A stretch of DNA of 40,885 nt from a virus. Below are positions 1 through 10,225 of this stretch, in pieces (positions within the stretch are counted from its first letter, which is position 1; each line of letters opens with the position of its first letter). The stretch lies in the UHGV virus genome UHGV-0869933, one strand, 5' to 3'. The position numbers and the translations under genes are program-made. The notes under the pieces were generated by a model. That model saw nothing but the letters and a program-made list of their open reading frames with translations. It had not been told where the DNA came from and did not search any database.

Positions 1-88
1 TCTTTAGTCCTTCTGCACCCTGATTATTTCATCAGAAATTAATTATCACTCTGTTGTTATTCTGTACATCCCGGCAGGGTAAGTCTTG
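1..88. repeat. Left copy of an 88-bp perfect inverted repeat (partner at 740-827)
   Basis: Bases 1-88 are the exact reverse complement of 740-827, checked base by base; identity stops at 88/740. The window begins exactly at the repeat end, so the left boundary cannot be assessed. Confidence 0.9.
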
Positions 89-431
89 CTCTGCCACTAC
101 CTCCGGACACCTCCGGCAGCGTCGGGTCCGGCATATCACTCGCCGCTTCACGAGCAGACTTTTGTCGATGGCATTCGGTACAGAGCGTCCAGAGATTCGT
201 CTCCTCATTACCACCACCGAACTGAAGTGCAATTCGGTGATCGAGTTCACTGTCACAGAGGTCAACCACACGACCACAGAGACGGCACTGCCCGGCGTCC
301 CTGAGCCAGATATGACGCTTGAGGGAAACACGTGCACTGCCACTGACACGACGCTGTTCACCCTTCAGAATATTCACCCGTCGGGTATTCAGTGTTTTGA
401 TTCTGCTCTGGAGTGTACGAAGCTCAGCCAT
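57..431 (-). CDS. HNH endonuclease
   Basis: 124 aa with CxxC ... DH ... N ... CxxCH spacing typical of HNH nucleases; last 10 codons lie inside the left inverted repeat; HNH genes commonly sit next to cos/terminase in HK97-like and lambdoid phages. Confidence 0.7.
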   Translation of the reverse strand: MAELRTLQSRIKTLNTRRVNILKGEQRRVSGSARVSLKRHIWLRDAGQCRLCGRVVDLCDSELDHRIALQFGGGNEETNLWTLCTECHRQKSAREAASDMPDPTLPEVSGGSGRARLTLPGCTE

Positions 432-472
432 GTAAAATCCCCGTCATATGGCAATCAGTAAAGGAAATAAAT

Positions 473-673
473 ATGTCATCGAAAAACCGTACCCGCAGAA
501 CCACAACCCGCAATATCCGTTTCCCCAATCACATGATTGAACAGATCAACATCGCCCTTGAGCATAAAGGGTCCGGTAACTTTTCAGCGTGGGTTATTGA
601 AGCCTGCAGGAGAAGGCTGGCAACAGATGCAACGCATCTGCGCCCGGCCAGCATGACAAATAACGAGAAATGA
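473..673 (+). CDS. Small ribbon-helix-helix-like DNA-binding protein (YlcI/DUF3950-like)
   Basis: 66-aa ORF from an internal ATG with AGGA-type RBS about 8 nt upstream; basic N-terminus followed by NIRFPNHMIEQINIALE, an RHH-like signature; divergent from the HNH gene. Confidence 0.5.
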   Translation: MSSKNRTRRTTTRNIRFPNHMIEQINIALEHKGSGNFSAWVIEACRRRLATDATHLRPASMTNNEK

Positions 674-739: not shown

Positions 740-827
740 CAAGACTTACCCTGCCGGGATGTACAGAATAACAACAGAGTGATAATTAATTTCTGATGAA
801 ATAATCAGGGTGCAGAAGGACTAAAGA
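740..827. repeat. Right copy of the 88-bp perfect inverted repeat
   Basis: Exact reverse complement of 1-88; overlaps the last 7 codons and stop of the 805-1146 gene. Confidence 0.9.
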
Positions 828-1146
828 TAAACGTTTTCTTCACGCCTTTACACGGCCTGTCCTTCTCAAATCGCCATTTTGCCATCGCCTTTACAACCTG
901 CTCATCAAACAGATGGTGCGGCTCTGAACGAATAAACTCAATTCGGGTGACAGTACCATCAGCACCAATATCAAACCTCACATCAACCCGTCCCTTTATA
1001 TAATTTGCCGCTGCATAGGCCGGATATTGTGGTAATGCCTTAACCAACTGTCGGGGCATATCTGTTTTATGTTGCGTACAGCCCATAACCAGAGAAGACA
1101 ACAAAATAATTAACGGAAGATTTCTTTTCATTTTCATTCCCCGCAC
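805..1146 (-). CDS. Lipoprotein with TonB C-terminal-like domain, at the bor position downstream of Rz
   Basis: N-terminal signal with lipobox-like LVMGC; C-terminal region (YPAYAAANYIKGRVDVRFDIGADGTVTRIEF ... AMAKWRF) resembles TonB_C; start may be the GTG at 1146 or the ATG at 1137. Confidence 0.6.
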   Translation of the reverse strand: MRGMKMKRNLPLIILLSSLVMGCTQHKTDMPRQLVKALPQYPAYAAANYIKGRVDVRFDIGADGTVTRIEFIRSEPHHLFDEQVVKAMAKWRFEKDRPCKGVKKTFIFSPSAP

Positions 1147-2579: not shown

Positions 2580-3113
2580 TTATCTGTCGATTCCCCAGCA
2601 CGCCAGCGCGCTCTCCTGGTCACGACGGGATACCTGACCGTAACAGTTATTTGAGCGAATACGGCAGTCTCTGCCACCGTCCTTAATCCACCAGCGAATC
2701 GCCTCACACGCTCCCCTGCGATCACCTGCATTAATTCGTTTATAAAACGTCGACGGAAAACACTTACCGGGGCCAATGTTGTACGGACAGAATGACGCGA
2801 TCCCCGCTTTCTGGGGTTCACTCAATGGCACTCTGATGTTTTTCTCCACCCATGCCAGCGCCTTATCACGCTCAATGGCGTTAACCCGGTCGCATTTTTC
2901 CTTCGACAACTTCATGCCCGGAACGACAGGTTTGCCATCCACCAGGATGGCACCGCGGCAGATGGTCCAGATACCCGCGCCATCACGGTATGCCGTGGTG
3001 TGGTTACCTTCCTTTTCATCCAGAAACTGGTCGAGAATGTCAGGCGCAGGCGCACCAGCGGCAATCAGCGCCAGAACGGCAGCCGACAGGCCGTATCTGA
3101 TTTTTGCGTTCAT
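2580..3113 (-). CDS. R: SAR endolysin (phage lysozyme, P21/P1-Lyz type)
   Basis: 177 aa; N-terminal weakly hydrophobic Gly/Ala-rich signal-anchor-release segment (GLSAAVLALIAAGA); E-x8-D-x5-T catalytic spacing (EGNHTTAYRDGAGIWT) of T4-lysozyme-like SAR endolysins. Confidence 0.9.
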   Translation of the reverse strand: MNAKIRYGLSAAVLALIAAGAPAPDILDQFLDEKEGNHTTAYRDGAGIWTICRGAILVDGKPVVPGMKLSKEKCDRVNAIERDKALAWVEKNIRVPLSEPQKAGIASFCPYNIGPGKCFPSTFYKRINAGDRRGACEAIRWWIKDGGRDCRIRSNNCYGQVSRRDQESALACWGIDR

Positions 3114-3218
3114 GGATATTTATCAGGATTTATCGGTTTCTGAGCCCTGGATATGTTTATCAGTTCCAGCCTGTTGCCTCAGGCTGCTAACAGGTCAATA
3201 CAATCATGAGGATTATTT

Positions 3219-3491
3219 ATGGACAATAACACCATTTCTCTACAGGAGTTGCTCGACAGCATTTCCAGGCTTCGGGAAGACGTGAATACCCTTACCGTCG
3301 CCTTCTCATATCTGGCATTCTCAATTCCAAGGGAACAGATGCAATCAACGCTGGCATCAATCCAGTTTGAATCATGCAATCCCAAATGGTCTCAGGAACA
3401 ACAAGACTCTTTCAGGCGGCTTGCTGTATTACTGGATGAAAAATATGCTGGTAAAATTACCATTTCGGCGGACTCTTCAGAGAACCCGTAA
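3219..3491 (+). CDS. Hypothetical protein, opposite strand inside the lysis cassette
   Basis: 90-aa ORF with GAGGA RBS 6 nt upstream of the ATG; converges on and overlaps the 3' end of the 3457-3801 gene by 35 bp; no family recognised. Confidence 0.4.
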   Translation: MDNNTISLQELLDSISRLREDVNTLTVAFSYLAFSIPREQMQSTLASIQFESCNPKWSQEQQDSFRRLAVLLDEKYAGKITISADSSENP

Positions 3492-3801
3492 TTATTCCCG
3501 GTAGTTTTCCTCTGTAGGTTATCAACACATCCTGCGCCTCTAAAATTACGGGGCGCTTTTCCGGCGACTGCTCATCCCCTTCACATAACCCGGCAGCAAC
3601 ATCCAGGAAGACCTGTCTGATGCTCCTTCTGGCTGCTGCCTCATAAAACTCCAGCGCGGCACCTTCAACACGGTCCAGCGAGATGTCCAGGTCAAAAATT
3701 TCACCGTCAAAGCGTTTTTTGTCCCGTAACGCTAAAGTTACCGTAACTTTATTCTCAAAATTGCGGATCCCTTTCACAATCAGTTCATAGTTTTGAGTCA
3801 T
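3457..3801 (-). CDS. Hypothetical protein between holin and endolysin (position of Qin ydfR)
   Basis: 114-aa ORF starting 5 nt after the holin stop with GGGGAGAG RBS; the YdfR equivalence is by position only. Confidence 0.5.
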   Translation of the reverse strand: MTQNYELIVKGIRNFENKVTVTLALRDKKRFDGEIFDLDISLDRVEGAALEFYEAAARRSIRQVFLDVAAGLCEGDEQSPEKRPVILEAQDVLITYRGKLPGIITGSLKSPPKW

Positions 3802-3805
3802 TGAA

Positions 3806-4021
3806 TTACTCTCCCCGTGCAGCCTTACGACGGTCCTCTCTGATTTTGAAATACAGGTTAGTCAGATATGTCAGCAGCCCAAACAGCAGACTCCCCAGCA
3901 CGCCTATTGCCGCCCACTGAGACGGGGAAACCCTGTCCAGCAACTGCAGGAACCAGTAGCCCGTTCCCACCGCTGACGTGGTGTATGACACACCTGTTGT
4001 GATTTTTTCCATCTGGTACAT
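3806..4021 (-). CDS. S: Pinholin (phage 21 S-like class II holin) with dual-start motif
   Basis: [13 protein letters not shown] ... [50 protein letters not shown] closely matches S21; two Met codons (M1, M4) fit holin/antiholin dual starts; the track ORF is extended upstream. Confidence 0.85.
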
Positions 4022-4171
4022 ACCCCGTCTCCCGTTATCCGGAAGCTGACAACAATAAAAAAAGCCACCAGTTAAGTACTGATGGCTCTGATAACTCATG
4101 CAGGCATCTCAGACGACCCACTGACACTACCGGTGAGTTTAACGATACCTTCCATTTGACTGGCTCACTTT

Positions 4172-6028
4172 TTATGATGATGCTGGTGCATTTATCTCCA
4201 GCACCAGACTTTCTATCTCAACGCCATACGCTGCATTTTTGGTAATATCCGTCAGCGTCAGCGCATTCAGCCCCAGTGTCAGACTGTCTTTTATGACCTG
4301 GAATGCCGGGCCAGCCACTCCATTCAGTTTCGGAGTAACCGTGGCACTGCCGGCGGTGAACACCAGTTCCAGCGTCTGCCAGTCGTTACTGTAATTCCCG
4401 AACTCGCCCAACTTTGTGTTTCCGGCTTTCTTGTGATGCATCAGATTCAGTTTGCCGTCTGTGGTCTGGGTGAAGAACGACATCAGGAACGGGTTACCAG
4501 TCCCGGTCATCGCCACGACGTCAGGTAACGCTACATCGGTATACAGATAAATTCCCAGACCGAACTGGTTGTTGGTCAGTGCGCCTGACAGTCGAAACTT
4601 ACAGCTCAGTCTGCCACCCCGTGTCAGCAGGGAGACTGCGTCATCCACCGGATGCATCAGGGACCAGGTTTTATTGCTCTGCTTGGTAACCTTAAACACA
4701 CCATCTTCCAGCGCAACACTGCCGCCGGTGATGGTCCAGCCCTGCGCAGCAGCCTCTCCGGCTGTCGGCAGCAGGGAGACTGTACGAACGGATGTGTCAC
4801 CATCAGACGGCCCCGATGGCGTGTCGCCGCCGGGCGAGGGTTTAATCTCCGGTGCGGTACCGCTGATGAAGGCGCTGGTTCGACCAACTGCGTTCAGAAT
4901 AGCGGTTGCCAGGCGATCCGAAATAATGCCCCTGCGCGCCCATGAACTGAAATGTGTCGGACGATTTGACGATACCCAATTACCATTACTACGGGATTGC
5001 GCGCCGTAATAACCTGCATCAGCAATATCCGGGTCTTCTGCCGGTAAGTTGGTGGGCGTGTTGTTGCCGTTACCGTCGGTCATGAACGGCACAAAGAAAA
5101 CGTTGTCGCTCTCCCTGTTTTTGTACGCGCCGTAGACGGAGTCATACTGTGTGCCGTATGTGTTTTTCCAGTAATACGTCGTGTCGCCACAAATCCACGG
5201 TACAACTGCAGCACTGCCGCCATGGCACTGCGCGTTAAATCCGGAAAGGTCAGTACGGAACTGCTTCAGCATGGCCGTGAACAGGTCCGGTTGCTGTGCG
5301 TAGGTGGCAGCGCTCATGTCAAATTCGCCCTGCATCCAGCACACCGCCAGCAACACATTTTTCGGGTTCTTCTGTAATGCCGCTTTGGTGCGTGCGATCA
5401 GGTCCTGATATAACGGTTTACCCACACCCCAGCGTGCCGAATCCTGGCTGGCCCCCGTGTCCGCACTGAATGTCCCCTCCGCGCCCTGGGTGAATGCCGA
5501 ACCACCACGACAGCATGGTACCAGCAGGATCCCCGCGTTATTCGGGATATACGGAAGCAGTTTTTTGGCAATATGTAAGCCCTGGCCGACACAGCCGTAC
5601 TGCCCTTTGCTCAGGTCTGCCTTCGGATGATTCAGTGCGCTCATATCCTGAACATCATGCAGGCAGTGGTCTGCCGGAATGATGTCGTTAAATGCGCATG
5701 CTTTACCACCGGGAGTCACTGTGTTGCGACGGGCCAGTTGCTTAATGCGTGGGTGGGGCGCATCGTAAGAATCCGGAAGCGGAAGCCCTTCACCGTAAGC
5801 CATGGCATTGGATTGCCCGGCCAGTACGATGACGTAGTACCACTCCGGCTCAGTTGCACCACTGACGACCACATCACCTTCTGCTGCAATCGCCTGCATC
5901 AGGGTATAAGGGGTTATGGCCACCGGACTACCAAACGGCTGCCAGCCCTCTTTCAGTTTATGTGTCAGCTTTTCCGCAAGATCTGACGGCGACGCCGCCC
6001 TGACAACATCATAGTGTTTAAATGCCAT
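4172..6028 (-). CDS. nanS: Prophage-type sialate O-acetylesterase NanS-p (DUF1737 + SGNH/SASA esterase + C-terminal domain)
   Basis: N-terminal MAFKHYDVVRAASPSDLAEKL (DUF1737-like), GQSNA esterase motif, about 620 aa; sits between the stx-equivalent locus and the holin, as in Stx and related lambdoid phages. Confidence 0.8.
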   Translation of the reverse strand: MAFKHYDVVRAASPSDLAEKLTHKLKEGWQPFGSPVAITPYTLMQAIAAEGDVVVSGATEPEWYYVIVLAGQSNAMAYGEGLPLPDSYDAPHPRIKQLARRNTVTPGGKACAFNDIIPADHCLHDVQDMSALNHPKADLSKGQYGCVGQGLHIAKKLLPYIPNNAGILLVPCCRGGSAFTQGAEGTFSADTGASQDSARWGVGKPLYQDLIARTKAALQKNPKNVLLAVCWMQGEFDMSAATYAQQPDLFTAMLKQFRTDLSGFNAQCHGGSAAVVPWICGDTTYYWKNTYGTQYDSVYGAYKNRESDNVFFVPFMTDGNGNNTPTNLPAEDPDIADAGYYGAQSRSNGNWVSSNRPTHFSSWARRGIISDRLATAILNAVGRTSAFISGTAPEIKPSPGGDTPSGPSDGDTSVRTVSLLPTAGEAAAQGWTITGGSVALEDGVFKVTKQSNKTWSLMHPVDDAVSLLTRGGRLSCKFRLSGALTNNQFGLGIYLYTDVALPDVVAMTGTGNPFLMSFFTQTTDGKLNLMHHKKAGNTKLGEFGNYSNDWQTLELVFTAGSATVTPKLNGVAGPAFQVIKDSLTLGLNALTLTDITKNAAYGVEIESLVLEINAPASS

Positions 6029-6288
6029 GGTTCTTTCCACCATCTGAAAAATGATTCTTTAAAATACCTGACATGTAATACAGAAAAAACACAAAACCAT
6101 ACCTTAAATAAAAACCTCATCATCAAGCAGATATGCATGGATAAACTACAAGACGAGATATAAACCACCCTGCATTTAAATAAACAATAAACAACATCAG
6201 AAAAATAATTCTGCTCTATGGTTTACAATCAAAAATATCATTTATACTTTTCAGAACATCACCAGCAAGGCATAAACAAGGAAACTAA

Positions 6289-6624
6289 ATGAAGTGGATT
6301 GTGATTGATACAGTTATCCAGCCATCATGCGGAATATCTTTTTCAGTCATATGGAGTAAAATAAAATTAATAATCTGGTATCAATCGGATGCTTTCTTAC
6401 CTCCTGAAAGTATATTTACACTGACTCACACAGGCATCATGCTCAATAACAAAGTGCTACCTGTAACCATTTACAACGTAGTACCATTCAATAAAACATT
6501 ATGGAATTTAATCAAAAACAGCCAGGAATGCCCTACAAATACAGATAACGTATTGAATGAATGCTTTAATAACCGTTGCACTCTGCAAATATGTCCTTAT
6601 GGGCTAAAACAACAAAGTCCATAA
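6289..6624 (+). CDS. Hypothetical Cys-containing protein in an AT-rich island at the stx-equivalent locus
   Basis: 111-aa ORF with AAGGAAA RBS 5-6 nt upstream; strongly AT-rich relative to neighbours; opposite strand to the late operon; followed by a strong hairpin at 6660-6680. Confidence 0.4.
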
Positions 6625-9403: not shown

Positions 9404-10225
9404 CTATCGCGTTACCCTCTTTAACTGCCGCTCCGCCCATGCCTCTTCAATGTCAAACCGAACCACCAACGTATCGTAAAAGCGTTTCACTGATTTTTTC
9501 CACGTATCAAGCGTGATAGCACTCGTCACTTTGCATATGGCATTAAATGCCTCCGTTGATGGCAGCCTTTCACAGCCACGACCACCACAACGCTGGCAAT
9601 CTCTGATAACAGGCATACCACGTTTTACCGACTCTTCACGATGAATGGCGACACCACGCCCACGGCAATCCTTACAGGCGGTGGAAACCTCACCCTTTCC
9701 GCCACACTCCGGACAGGCAACTTTTACCACCTCCCTGACTTTTTTCCATTCTTCCCAGTAAGACGGATACACGCCTTTTGTGCACTTTGCCCACACTGGT
9801 GGCTTACCATCCGGATACTGGATCTTGTTTGTAAAAACCTCGCTTTCAATAAATTTTTTTCCGTGACAGCAGGGGCACTGTTTTTTGCTCGCCGCGCTAC
9901 GGGCATAATCTTCAAACGCATACGAAGCCATAATGCGCATCACTACCGGTTTTATTTCTGCCGGAAGTTTTCTCAACGCCGCCACACGATCGCACCGACT
10001 GAGTGCATAATCTGCCAGTAATTCTGTTGCCCGCGCCCTGTCATTCATACTGATGCCCATTTTCCCCAGGAACGCAGAAAACCCCATCTCAGCCCGATTC
10101 TGTGTCATGCCCTGCGCGGCCATCACATCAGTGATACTCAGCGCATCTTTTGACGTTGAGGCCGATGCATCGGTCAGGCCAGGGGATTTTGGGGAGTAGT
10201 ATTTCGGTAAATCTTCCAGTTTCAT
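9404..10225 (-). CDS. Q: Late antiterminator Q-like protein (zinc-binding)
   Basis: 273 aa with several CxxC pairs; sits between rusA and pR' exactly where lambdoid Q genes lie; family assignment is from context and motifs. Confidence 0.6.
   Translation of the reverse strand: MKLEDLPKYYSPKSPGLTDASASTSKDALSITDVMAAQGMTQNRAEMGFSAFLGKMGISMNDRARATELLADYALSRCDRVAALRKLPAEIKPVVMRIMASYAFEDYARSAASKKQCPCCHGKKFIESEVFTNKIQYPDGKPPVWAKCTKGVYPSYWEEWKKVREVVKVACPECGGKGEVSTACKDCRGRGVAIHREESVKRGMPVIRDCQRCGGRGCERLPSTEAFNAICKVTSAITLDTWKKSVKRFYDTLVVRFDIEEAWAERQLKRVTR

What the first reader, a model, noticed from the sequence alone, without database searches (positions are those of the whole stretch)
3114..3805. 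Opposite-strand gene embedded between holin and endolysin
The holin-endolysin interval holds a minus-strand gene (3457-3801) and, convergent with it, a plus-strand 90-aa ORF (3219-3491) with a good GAGGA ribosome-binding site. The two overlap by 35 bp at their 3' ends. A gene transcribed against the late operon inside the lysis cassette is unusual and could act in the lysogen, with its transcript also antisense to late mRNA.
Basis: seen in the sequence. Interest (0 to 1): 0.4.

Follow-up and report, generated by a model that had tools for sequence, protein, structure and literature searches.

The report
Backward-facing accessory gene in phage lysis cassette
The backward-facing 90-codon reading frame between the holin and endolysin genes of this E. 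coli prophage is a real, conserved small gene of the classic add-on ("moron") type. It is common rather than unusual, its function is unknown, and its upstream region belongs to a widely shared control region that I could not find described in Rfam or in the papers I could search.

Summary
The late/lysis operon runs on the minus strand: holin 3806-4021, DUF1327/YdfR 3457-3801, lysozyme 2580-3113. ORF 3219-3491 (+, 90 aa, GAGGA 6 nt upstream) runs against it and overlaps ydfR by 35 bp.

The ORF is a genuine protein gene:
- dN/dS is 0.25.
- The frame is open in every variant, including a Citrobacter copy at about 60% identity. The mirror frame is broken.
- Homologues at 25-40% identity lie in other contexts: tail operon, upstream of terminase, and chromosome.

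It is not unusual. At least 80% of window 3100-3810 (ORF90 plus ydfR) is found in 1116 of 5426 complete E. coli genomes, where it is annotated as hypothetical (WP_000369850.1, phrog_2411). It behaves as a moron. The roughly 294-bp module is absent from, or replaced in, relatives. Its GC is 44% against 53-55% in the flanking genes. It persists where ydfR is deleted.

Its upstream region is a reduced copy of a conserved leader of about 115 nt, made of a -10-like TAnnnT followed by covarying hairpins. That leader precedes at least 24 unrelated small cargo genes in enterobacterial phages, including the annotated morons HK022 gp23 and ES18 gp25. The leader gave no Rfam match.

The protein is a three-helix, acidic protein with no informative fold or family match. 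Expression in the lysogen and any antisense effect are inferred, not shown.

The parts
3219..3491 (+). ORF90: a 90-aa acidic (pI 4.5), three-helix protein gene, the cargo of the opposite-strand cassette. Annotated as WP_000369850.1 'hypothetical protein' and matching phrog_2411.
3208..3212 (+). Shine-Dalgarno GAGGA, 6 nt upstream of the ATG. It is conserved in the E. coli variants, and Citrobacter has AAGGA at the same place.
3117..3165 (+). Block homologous to the promoter part of the conserved cassette leader: TTATCAGG at 3120-3127, CCCTGG at 3145-3150, and a -10-like TATGTT at 3152-3157. The predicted transcription start is about 3164-3166. This is inferred and has not been mapped.
   Evidence: The covariance model built from 83 canonical leaders hits 3117-3219 (+) at 21.7 bits, E about 0.007. 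It was the only hit in the window with E below 0.01; the other scored 12.1 bits, E 0.88. The generic sigma-70 scan found nothing here.
3166..3187 (+). Hairpin near the 5' end of the leader: CAGCCTG (3167-3173), a 6-nt loop, then CAGGCTG (3180-3186). It corresponds to the CAGCC/GGCTG pairing of the canonical leader with the two inner hairpins deleted.
   Evidence: On its own this is weak: fold z-score -0.9 and no compensatory changes among 7 E. coli variants.
3168..3461 (.). Approximate extent of the insertion/replacement module relative to relatives that lack ORF90. GC is 44.2%, against 55% for R and 53% for S.
3457..3491 (.). 35-bp overlap of the convergent 3' ends. The ydfR stop lies inside the module. 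The ORF90 stop lies in sequence that is conserved in all ydfR variants.
3457..3801 (-). YdfR-family (DUF1327) gene, co-directional with the late operon.
   Evidence: Pfam PF07041, E 7e-43. PGAP annotates it as 'YdfR family protein'. K-12 YdfR binds the RNase E N-terminal domain and co-purifies RNA (PMC13232886).
3806..4021 (-). Class II (S21-type) holin. The ORF is open up to 4099, but PGAP starts it at the position equivalent to 4021, and a terminator-like hairpin lies at 4089-4061.
2580..3113 (-). Endolysin (phage lysozyme R). Its start codon lies 6 nt from the leader block.

Best explanation
ORF90 (3219-3491, +) is the protein-coding cargo of a moron: a small, horizontally mobile, self-contained gene cassette inserted backwards into the lambdoid late operon, here between ydfR and the endolysin gene.

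Shown:
- It is a real gene under purifying selection.
- The module is present, absent or replaced at this slot among close relatives.
- Its GC content is lower than that of its neighbours.
- It persists without ydfR and next to different lysis genes.
- Homologues sit backwards in other late-operon positions.

Inferred:
- It is transcribed from its own weak sigma-70-type promoter (-10 TATGTT, 3152-3157).
- The transcript is an mRNA with a short hairpin leader and a strong Shine-Dalgarno sequence.
- Expression happens mainly in the lysogen, when Q-dependent late transcription from the opposite strand is off.
- It yields a 10-kDa acidic three-helix cytoplasmic protein that acts by binding some host or phage partner. 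The most likely role is an accessory one, such as exclusion, anti-defence or host modulation, rather than a lysis function.

Because no terminator follows the stop codon, the transcript probably continues antisense into ydfR and possibly the holin gene. That could be a secondary effect.
For: Coding:
- dN/dS is 0.25, and variable sites fall 15/11/34 by codon position.
- The frame is open in all variants while the mirror frame is broken.
- Distant members at 25-40% identity share the motif ELL..I..LR..VN.L..AF.YL.
- The AF2 model has three helices at pLDDT 81.

Moron behaviour:
- The module is absent in vB_EcoS-611R1 and K-12 Qin, and replaced by an unrelated 86-aa opposite-strand ORF in L004.
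- GC is 44% against 53-55% in the flanks.
- The ORF is intact where ydfR is largely deleted (L093-95).
- It lies next to other holins and endolysins in phiSTEC1575-Stx2k and Citrobacter.
- Homologues lie on the opposite strand between tail genes M and L and upstream of terminase.

Leader:
- The covariance model of 83 canonical leaders hits 3117-3219.
- The canonical leader has an invariant TAnnnT. Conservation restarts 7 nt downstream of it.
- Its hairpins covary, with 8 pairs changed on both sides and 0 of 500 shuffles reaching the observed values. Many pairs are G.U, which only work on the cargo strand.

The same leader precedes HK022 gp23 ('moron gene product') and ES18 gp25 ('possible moron').

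Of the canonical cassettes with both neighbours known, 50 of 66 are antisense to both flanking genes. A terminator-like hairpin follows the cargo in 29 of 82 on the sense strand, against 5 of 82 in the control.

Precedent for lysogen-expressed antisense morons: PMC7067206. Definition of a moron: PMC3594210.
Against: - There is no transcript, transcription-start or protein evidence for this gene in anything I could search.
- The promoter is weak by consensus: no -35 is recognisable, and the generic scan found nothing.
- The covariance-model hit on the window is modest (21.7 bits, rough E about 0.007). It rests on the promoter block, because the covarying hairpins are missing from this copy.
- The remaining hairpin is no more stable than shuffled sequence, with a z-score of -0.9.
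- There is no intrinsic terminator, so the classical moron criterion of 'own terminator' is not met here.
- Only 3 of 50,697 deposited phage records carry the gene. It may therefore sit mostly in defective prophages.
Confidence: 0.72

Rival explanations
1. The main function lies in the RNA. The plus-strand transcript, which is not terminated after ORF90, pairs with late mRNA across ydfR and possibly the holin gene. That would silence leaky lysis-gene expression in the lysogen, or destroy the late transcripts of a superinfecting relative. On this view the protein is secondary.
For: There is a 35-bp convergent overlap and no terminator-like hairpin within 230 nt after the stop. In BTP1, the antisense RNA STnc6030, which lies inside the late operon, is expressed in the lysogen and blocks BTP1 superinfection (PMC7067206).
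Against: The protein frame is under purifying selection. It is conserved down to 25-40% identity in contexts whose opposite-strand partners are unrelated, and pure antisense function would not need that. In Citrobacter the homologue has a terminator 4 nt after its stop, and 29 of 82 related cassettes have one. Antisense read-through is therefore not a conserved feature of the family.
Confidence: 0.12
2. ORF90 and YdfR form a two-gene functional unit. For example, ORF90 might antagonise or regulate YdfR, which in K-12 binds RNase E and RNA. The convergent overlap would couple their expression.
For: ORF90 is usually found next to ydfR in E. coli. ES18 has the same convergent layout, DUF1327 gp24 plus opposite-strand gp25, in its tail operon. 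The gp25 family gives a weak profile match to ORF90 (hhalign P = 2.7e-4, probability 41%). K-12 YdfR binds the RNase E N-terminal domain (PMC13232886).
Against: - ORF90 stays intact where ydfR is deleted.
- In Citrobacter it sits next to a non-DUF1327 gene.
- ydfR is widespread without ORF90, for example in K-12 Qin, Stx phages and 611R1.
- Only 6 of 83 canonical cassettes have a DUF1327 partner.
Confidence: 0.1
3. ORF90 is a lysis-timing regulator, such as an antiholin-like factor or endolysin inhibitor, that acts during lytic growth. That would explain its position inside the lysis cassette.
For: Only its position between holin and endolysin.
Against: - It has no transmembrane segment or signal peptide. 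It is hydrophilic (GRAVY -0.43) and acidic.
- It faces against Q-driven late transcription.
- The slot is empty, or holds unrelated genes, in relatives with the same holin and endolysin.
- Homologues lie in tail operons, near terminase genes and in the chromosome.
- It is found with three different lysis-gene sets.
Confidence: 0.04
4. It is not a gene. The open frame would be a by-product of constraints on the minus strand, either an unrecognised minus-strand ORF at 3179-3385 or structure in the late mRNA.
For: The mirror minus frame shows an equally low dN/dS of 0.17. That is expected whenever one of two mirror frames is coding.
Against: The minus frame has stops at different positions in the window, L089, L090 and Citrobacter, while the plus frame is always open. 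The Shine-Dalgarno sequence and ATG are conserved across genera. Protein-level homologues exist in unrelated DNA contexts.
Confidence: 0.02

Closest known systems
HK022 gp22/gp23 ('srb') moron pair between tail genes I and J (record NC_002166; moron concept from Juhala et al. 2000, as summarised in PMC3594210)
   Same: A small opposite-strand gene inside the late operon. It is convergent with, and overlaps at the 3' end, a small co-directional gene. It is preceded by the same conserved leader (140 bits with model R1). Both genes are annotated 'moron gene product'.
   Different: It lies in the tail operon, not the lysis cassette. Its leader is full length with both covarying hairpins. The cargo is a different family, with only a weak profile similarity between ORF90 and an alignment of phrog_6806-type cargo that includes gp23 (P = 0.0046). 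The partner gp22 was not tested against DUF1327.
ES18 gp24 (DUF1327) / gp25 'possible morons' between tail genes M and L (NC_006949)
   Same: The two-gene layout is identical: a DUF1327 gene co-directional with late genes, plus a convergent opposite-strand small helical-protein gene carrying the conserved leader. The gp25 family gives the best remote profile match to ORF90 (probability 41%).
   Different: It lies in the tail operon. There is no 3' overlap. A putative terminator is annotated after gp25. The leader is full length. Homology of the cargo to ORF90 is not established.
Lambda bor (from my own knowledge: a lysogen-expressed lipoprotein gene next to Rz, transcribed opposite to the late operon)
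   Same: An opposite-strand accessory gene in or at the lysis region of a lambdoid phage, expressed independently of late transcription.
   Different: bor lies after Rz rather than between S and R. It encodes a lipoprotein with a known serum-resistance phenotype, is unrelated in sequence, and I did not check it for the shared leader.
Salmonella prophage antisense loci described by transcriptomics: ST64B STMMW_20121 and BTP1 STnc6030 (PMC7067206)
   Same: Transcription units that lie antisense within late (lytic) gene clusters, have their own promoters and are active in lysogens. STnc6030 shows that such antisense transcripts can confer immunity to superinfection.
   Different: STnc6030 is non-coding, whereas ORF90 is protein-coding. 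Neither ST64B nor BTP1 appeared among the 24 phage records that matched the conserved leader. No expression data exist for ORF90.

Membership tests
Moron (Juhala/Hendrix definition, as given in PMC3594210) | Extra DNA lying between two genes that are adjacent in related phages | tested here: met
   About 294 bp (3168-3461) is absent in vB_EcoS-611R1. In K-12 Qin, ydfR abuts rrrQ directly.
Moron (Juhala/Hendrix definition, as given in PMC3594210) | Base composition different from the surrounding genes | tested here: met
   The module is 44.2% GC and the leader 41%, against R 55.1%, S 53.2% and Rz 53.1%.
Moron (Juhala/Hendrix definition, as given in PMC3594210) | Own promoter | tested here: inconclusive
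   A -10-like TATGTT at 3152-3157 aligns with the invariant TAnnnT of 83 related leaders. However, there is no -35, the consensus scan found nothing, and the transcription start has not been mapped.
Moron (Juhala/Hendrix definition, as given in PMC3594210) | Own terminator | tested here: not met
   No hairpin plus T-run was found within 230 nt after the stop. By contrast, 29 of 82 related cassettes and the Citrobacter homologue do have one.
Moron (Juhala/Hendrix definition, as given in PMC3594210) | Expressed from the repressed prophage | not testable with these tools
   No transcriptome or proteome data were found for this gene.
Conserved-leader opposite-strand cassettes (HK022 gp23 / ES18 gp25 type; defined in this work) | Promoter block TATCAGG...CCCTGG-TAnnnT upstream of the cargo | tested here: met
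   Model R1 hits 3117-3219 (+) at 21.7 bits, E about 0.007. No other hit in the window reached E below 0.01. All E. coli ORF90 variants score 22-27 bits. The E-values are rough.
Conserved-leader opposite-strand cassettes (HK022 gp23 / ES18 gp25 type; defined in this work) | Two covarying leader hairpins (loops GUGGGA and GAUGGCUGAUUA) | tested here: not met
   The window keeps only CAGCCUG-loop-CAGGCUG, which is the outer pairing. Both inner hairpins are missing.
Conserved-leader opposite-strand cassettes (HK022 gp23 / ES18 gp25 type; defined in this work) | Small cargo ORF, antisense to both flanking late genes | tested here: met
   The cargo is 90 aa and is flanked by minus-strand ydfR and R. 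Family statistics: 50 of 66 cassettes are antisense to both neighbours, and cargo are mostly 65-99 aa.
PHROG 2411 | Full-length match to the family profile | tested here: met
   E 1.1e-58, residues 1-90 of 90. The family has no known function.
DUF1327 / YdfR (for the minus-strand gene 3457-3801) | Pfam PF07041 match above the gathering score | tested here: met
   145 bits against a cut-off of 25.
Holin/antiholin or other lysis-cassette proteins (for ORF90) | A membrane segment or a lysis-family domain, and linkage to a particular holin or endolysin | tested here: not met
   It matches no lysis family and is hydrophilic. It occurs with three different lysis-gene sets and also outside lysis cassettes.
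Known anti-phage defence proteins (PADLOC) | Match to a defence-system model | tested here: not met
   There were no hits for ORF90, YdfR, the Citrobacter partner or the alternative ORF86 at E of 0.1 or below.
Known RNA families (Rfam 15) for the leader | Covariance-model match | tested here: not met
   There was no meaningful hit on window 2900-4200 or on a canonical leader in L099, even at E of 10 or below.

The most novel reading that the evidence does not exclude
The conserved region of about 115 nt upstream of ORF90-type genes may be an undescribed expression platform for phage accessory genes. It would consist of a shared promoter plus a structured, possibly pseudoknotted, 5' leader RNA. 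Its elements are UCAGCC, a hairpin with a GUGGGA loop, and a hairpin whose loop GAUGGCUGAUUA pairs with the 5' end. The platform is kept nearly invariant while at least 24 unrelated small protein genes are swapped behind it. The cassette is planted backwards at many positions in the late operons of E. coli and Salmonella temperate phages and related enterobacterial viral contigs. The leader would then be a new cis-regulatory RNA that controls when prophage accessory proteins are made. On this reading, ORF90 in this window is a degenerate member that has lost the regulatory hairpins.
Probability: 0.35. Interest if true: 0.65.

Novelty: new member of a known kind. Interest (0 to 1): 0.4.

Why it matters
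For the finding as stated, the value is mostly corrective. A feature that looked odd is an ordinary lambdoid moron carried by about a fifth of complete E. coli genomes. It is already annotated as a hypothetical protein and has no link to lysis.

It still marks a very common prophage-encoded protein family of unknown function. The family sits where lysogen-expressed exclusion or host-modulating genes typically sit, so it is a reasonable target for a simple knockout or overexpression screen.

The more interesting by-product is the shared leader. If one conserved promoter and structured 5' UTR really drives dozens of unrelated small proteins from inside late operons, it offers three things:
- A sequence handle for finding prophage accessory genes systematically.
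- A candidate new regulatory RNA.
- A concrete way to ask how morons are expressed against, and insulated from, late transcription.

Tried and rejected
- **Homology between ORF90 and the alternative 86-aa ORF in the same slot.** BLASTP found no alignment and hhalign gave a probability of 0.9%, so I rejected it.
- **'ybl58' at 44% identity as a distant homologue.** It is the same gene with two compensating frameshifts.
- **The minus-strand ORF 3179-3385 as the real gene.** Rejected because its stops vary between variants.
- **A canonical sigma-70 promoter or an intrinsic terminator for ORF90.** Neither was found. The candidate TTGCCT-N19-TACAAT would start transcription inside the Shine-Dalgarno sequence, so I dropped it.
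- **First loose DNA pattern for the leader** (CAGCYC-N19-47-GGCTGATWAMC). This set was not analysed as a whole. None of its 120 candidates was followed by an ORF90-family gene, so it was replaced by a more specific pattern. Several of its loci do carry the canonical leader.
- **Short motif CCYGGWTATKKT elsewhere in the window.** The pattern is too short for its other 9 one-mismatch matches to be informative, even though 10 matches exceed the 2.4 expected by chance. The covariance model found no second copy.
- **Strict coupling of the cassette to DUF1327.** Rejected: only 6 of 83 canonical cassettes have such a partner.
- **Literature searches.** Searches for ydfR/DUF1327, ybl58, srb, the protein accessions and the leader sequence gave nothing on ORF90 or on the leader. 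The ES18 genome paper is not held. The HK97/HK022 paper (Juhala et al. 2000) was not looked up.

Full report
**1. What is there**

The first 10 kb of the window is the late region of a lambdoid prophage, read on the minus strand. In order it holds:
- Q antiterminator, 9404-10225
- two tRNAs
- a SASA/NanS-type esterase, 4172-6043
- a class II holin, 3806-4021
- a DUF1327/YdfR gene, 3457-3801
- phage lysozyme, 2580-3113
- Rz/Rz1
- an HNH gene

An E. coli chromosome that is identical over window 3100-3810 carries the same gene order, followed by terminase genes.

The plus-strand ORF 3219-3491 (90 aa) is therefore the only gene here that opposes the late operon. It has GAGGA 6 nt before its ATG and overlaps the 3' end of ydfR by 35 bp.

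**2. Is the plus-strand frame a gene?**

Yes, for four reasons.

- *Substitution pattern.* Among 10 sequences (9 distinct, 85-100% identical), the non-overlapping part gives pS 0.223, pN 0.063 and dN/dS 0.25. Variable sites fall 15/11/34 at codon positions 1/2/3.
- *The mirror frame is excluded.* The mirror antisense frame necessarily shows a similar ratio (0.17). However, it carries stop codons at different places in different variants, whereas the plus frame is open in all of them. That includes a Citrobacter copy at about 60% amino-acid identity, where DNA similarity is barely detectable.
- *Translation signals.* The Shine-Dalgarno sequence and the ATG are conserved across genera.
- *Distant homologues.* A profile search of 1.84 billion representative proteins finds only 19 clusters. 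These include members at 25-40% identity and 81-97 aa that share a clear motif.

RefSeq already annotates the gene as a hypothetical protein (WP_000369850.1), and it matches phrog_2411 end to end. One entry at 44% identity named 'ybl58' is the same gene with two compensating frameshifts.

**3. How common, and in what contexts?**

At least 80% of window 3100-3810, the stretch holding ORF90 and ydfR, is found in 1116 of 5426 complete E. coli genomes. ORF90 itself is in only 3 of 50,697 deposited phage records.

The slot between ydfR and the endolysin gene is variable:
- In vB_EcoS-611R1 the module of about 294 bp (window about 3168-3461) is missing.
- In K-12 Qin, ydfR abuts the endolysin gene.
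- In other prophages the slot holds an unrelated 86-aa opposite-strand ORF.

The module is 44% GC, against 53-55% for the lysis genes.

ORF90 does not depend on its neighbours:
- It is intact where ydfR is mostly deleted.
- It precedes different holins and an M15 peptidase in phiSTEC1575-Stx2k.
- In Citrobacter it lies beside a non-DUF1327 gene, a family-3 holin and a CHAP endolysin.

More distant homologues lie in other places. One is on the opposite strand between tail genes M and L. One is on the opposite strand upstream of the terminase genes. One is in a chromosome between dinI and bssS.

This is the behaviour of a moron, not of a lysis gene.

**4. The upstream region leads further**

The 105 nt between the endolysin start and ORF90 resemble the regions upstream of the Citrobacter, tail-slot and terminase-slot homologues.

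In known phages the element lies upstream of:
- HK022 gp23, annotated 'srb protein; moron gene product'. It is convergent with, and overlaps, gp22, between tail genes I and J.
- ES18 gp25, annotated 'possible moron'. It is convergent with gp24, a DUF1327 protein, between tail genes M and L.
- mEp213 gp72 and HK633 gp65, both downstream of Rz.

Other phages carry it too.

Eighty-three distinct copies align well, and the alignment shows these features:
- A conserved block TGAATATCAGGGTGTT...CCCTGG.
- An invariant T-A-n-n-n-T, which has the pattern of a -10 hexamer.
- Six variable bases after it.
- Conservation restarting exactly where a transcript would begin (UCAGCC).
- Two hairpins, then AAGGA and the ATG.

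On the proposed structure, 93.6% of cells pair and 8 pairs show changes on both sides. No shuffle out of 500 reaches the observed values, and versions with the partners slid by 1-3 columns collapse to 27-43% pairing. The many G.U pairs only work on the cargo strand, so this is a structure of the cargo mRNA leader and not of the late mRNA. The 5' UCAGCC is complementary to GGCUGA in the loop of the second hairpin. That pairing is invariant, so it is unproven.

Rfam 15 has no match, and no held paper contains the sequence.

Behind this leader sit 73 distinct proteins in 24 BLAST-unrelated clusters. Most are 65-99 aa, and the 10 representatives I scanned have no known function.
- 50 of the 66 cassettes with both neighbours known are antisense to both flanking genes.
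- 36 of 83 overlap a convergent ORF at the 3' end.
- Only 6 of 83 have a DUF1327 partner.
- 29 of 82 have a terminator-like hairpin after the cargo, against 5 of 82 on the control strand.

**5. How the window copy relates to that family**

A covariance model built from the 83 leaders hits window 3117-3219 (+). It was the only match in 40.9 kb with E below 0.01, at 21.7 bits and a rough E of about 0.007.

The same model finds every E. coli ORF90 variant (22-27 bits), the leader of the alternative 86-aa ORF (28.7 bits), and HK022 and mEp213, which were not used to build it (140 and 131 bits).

The match in the window rests on the promoter block: TTATCAGG at 3120-3127, CCCTGG at 3145-3150 and TATGTT at 3152-3157. 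Both covarying hairpins are deleted. What remains is CAGCCUG-loop-CAGGCUG (3167-3186), which corresponds to the outer pairing. On its own, that hairpin is no more stable than shuffled sequence (z-score -0.9), and it shows no compensatory change among seven E. coli variants.

I therefore treat the window's leader as a degenerate member. Homology of the promoter block is reasonably supported. A structural role for the RNA in this copy is not.

**6. The protein**

ORF90 is 10.2 kDa, with pI 4.5 and GRAVY -0.43. With a 21-sequence alignment, AlphaFold gives three helices (residues 8-35, 38-52 and 59-76) at pLDDT 81.

**7. Mechanism**

Shown:
- A real gene.
- A mobile module.
- Opposite orientation.
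- A strong ribosome-binding site.
- Homology of its upstream block to a conserved promoter-like region used by annotated morons.

Inferred:
- It is transcribed from about 3164 by host RNA polymerase, chiefly when late transcription is off, that is in the lysogen. This is as described for morons (PMC3594210) and as seen for antisense loci in Salmonella prophages (PMC7067206).
- It makes a small cytoplasmic binding protein with an accessory role.

Because no terminator follows the stop, the transcript probably runs antisense into ydfR and perhaps the holin gene. The BTP1 STnc6030 case shows that such RNAs can matter (PMC7067206). However, terminators in related cassettes argue that this is not the conserved function.

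A specific partnership with YdfR is possible, but most contexts do not support it. YdfR binds RNase E and co-purifies RNA in K-12 (PMC13232886).

**8. Verdict**

The finding is real but ordinary in kind: a moron inside the lysis cassette, common in E. coli and already annotated as hypothetical. The claim that it is unusual is not supported.

It is the shared promoter and structured leader that links this gene to HK022 gp23, ES18 gp25 and dozens of unrelated small cargo genes.

Noticed in passing
window 3117-3218; loci L113-L323, L324 (HK022), L325 (mEp213), L326 (HK633), L327 (ES18): A conserved promoter-plus-leader of about 115 nt, with covarying hairpins, precedes at least 24 unrelated small ORFs. 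The cassettes are mostly inserted antisense in late operons of enterobacterial phages. The element has no match in Rfam 15 or in the held papers.
   Followed up: yes
L004 1128-1388 (+); also phages 2H10 and Perceval: In other E. coli prophages the same ydfR|endolysin slot holds an unrelated 86-aa opposite-strand ORF (WP_001306174.1). It has the same type of leader (28.7 bits with model R1).
   Followed up: partly
L327 (ES18) 1619-2171: ES18 gp24 is a DUF1327 protein convergent with the opposite-strand moron gp25, between tail genes M and L. This is the same two-gene layout as ydfR plus ORF90, but in the tail operon. Only 6 of 83 cassettes have a DUF1327 partner.
   Followed up: partly
window 3457-3475: The module remodels the C-terminus of YdfR. 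It ends ...SPPKW here, against ...TPPESQP in the ORF-less relative, and the frame continues for about 50 more residues in the alternative-ORF relative. The ydfR stop codon lies in the inserted DNA.
   Followed up: partly
window 805-1146 (-): A 113-aa predicted lipoprotein with a TonB C-terminal domain lies just downstream of Rz/Rz1, in the position where lambda carries bor. It is probably another accessory gene.
   Followed up: no
window 6289-6624 (+): An IraM/PmrD-like anti-adapter gene lies on the plus strand, so it also opposes the late operon. It sits between the tRNA genes and the SASA esterase gene. The arrangement shows that opposite-strand accessory genes recur in this late region.
   Followed up: no
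window 413-673 (+) and 57-431 (-): A DUF3950 ORF lies on the opposite strand next to an HNH endonuclease gene, near the terminase end of the late operon.
   Followed up: no
window 4061-4089 (-): A strong terminator-like hairpin with a T-run lies inside the long form of the holin ORF (3806-4099). The real holin start is therefore probably 4021, as in RefSeq. The hairpin may terminate transcripts of the upstream esterase gene unless RNA polymerase is Q-modified.
   Followed up: no
L106 4001-4279: A distant ORF90 homologue (about 29% identity) is chromosomal. It lies between dinI and bssS, on the same strand as its neighbours, in an unidentified enterobacterium.
   Followed up: no
L005 4001-4273: One E. 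coli assembly encodes ORF90 with two compensating frameshifts, and the product is named 'ybl58'. This is probably a sequencing artefact. It mimics a 44%-identity homologue in protein searches.
   Followed up: yes
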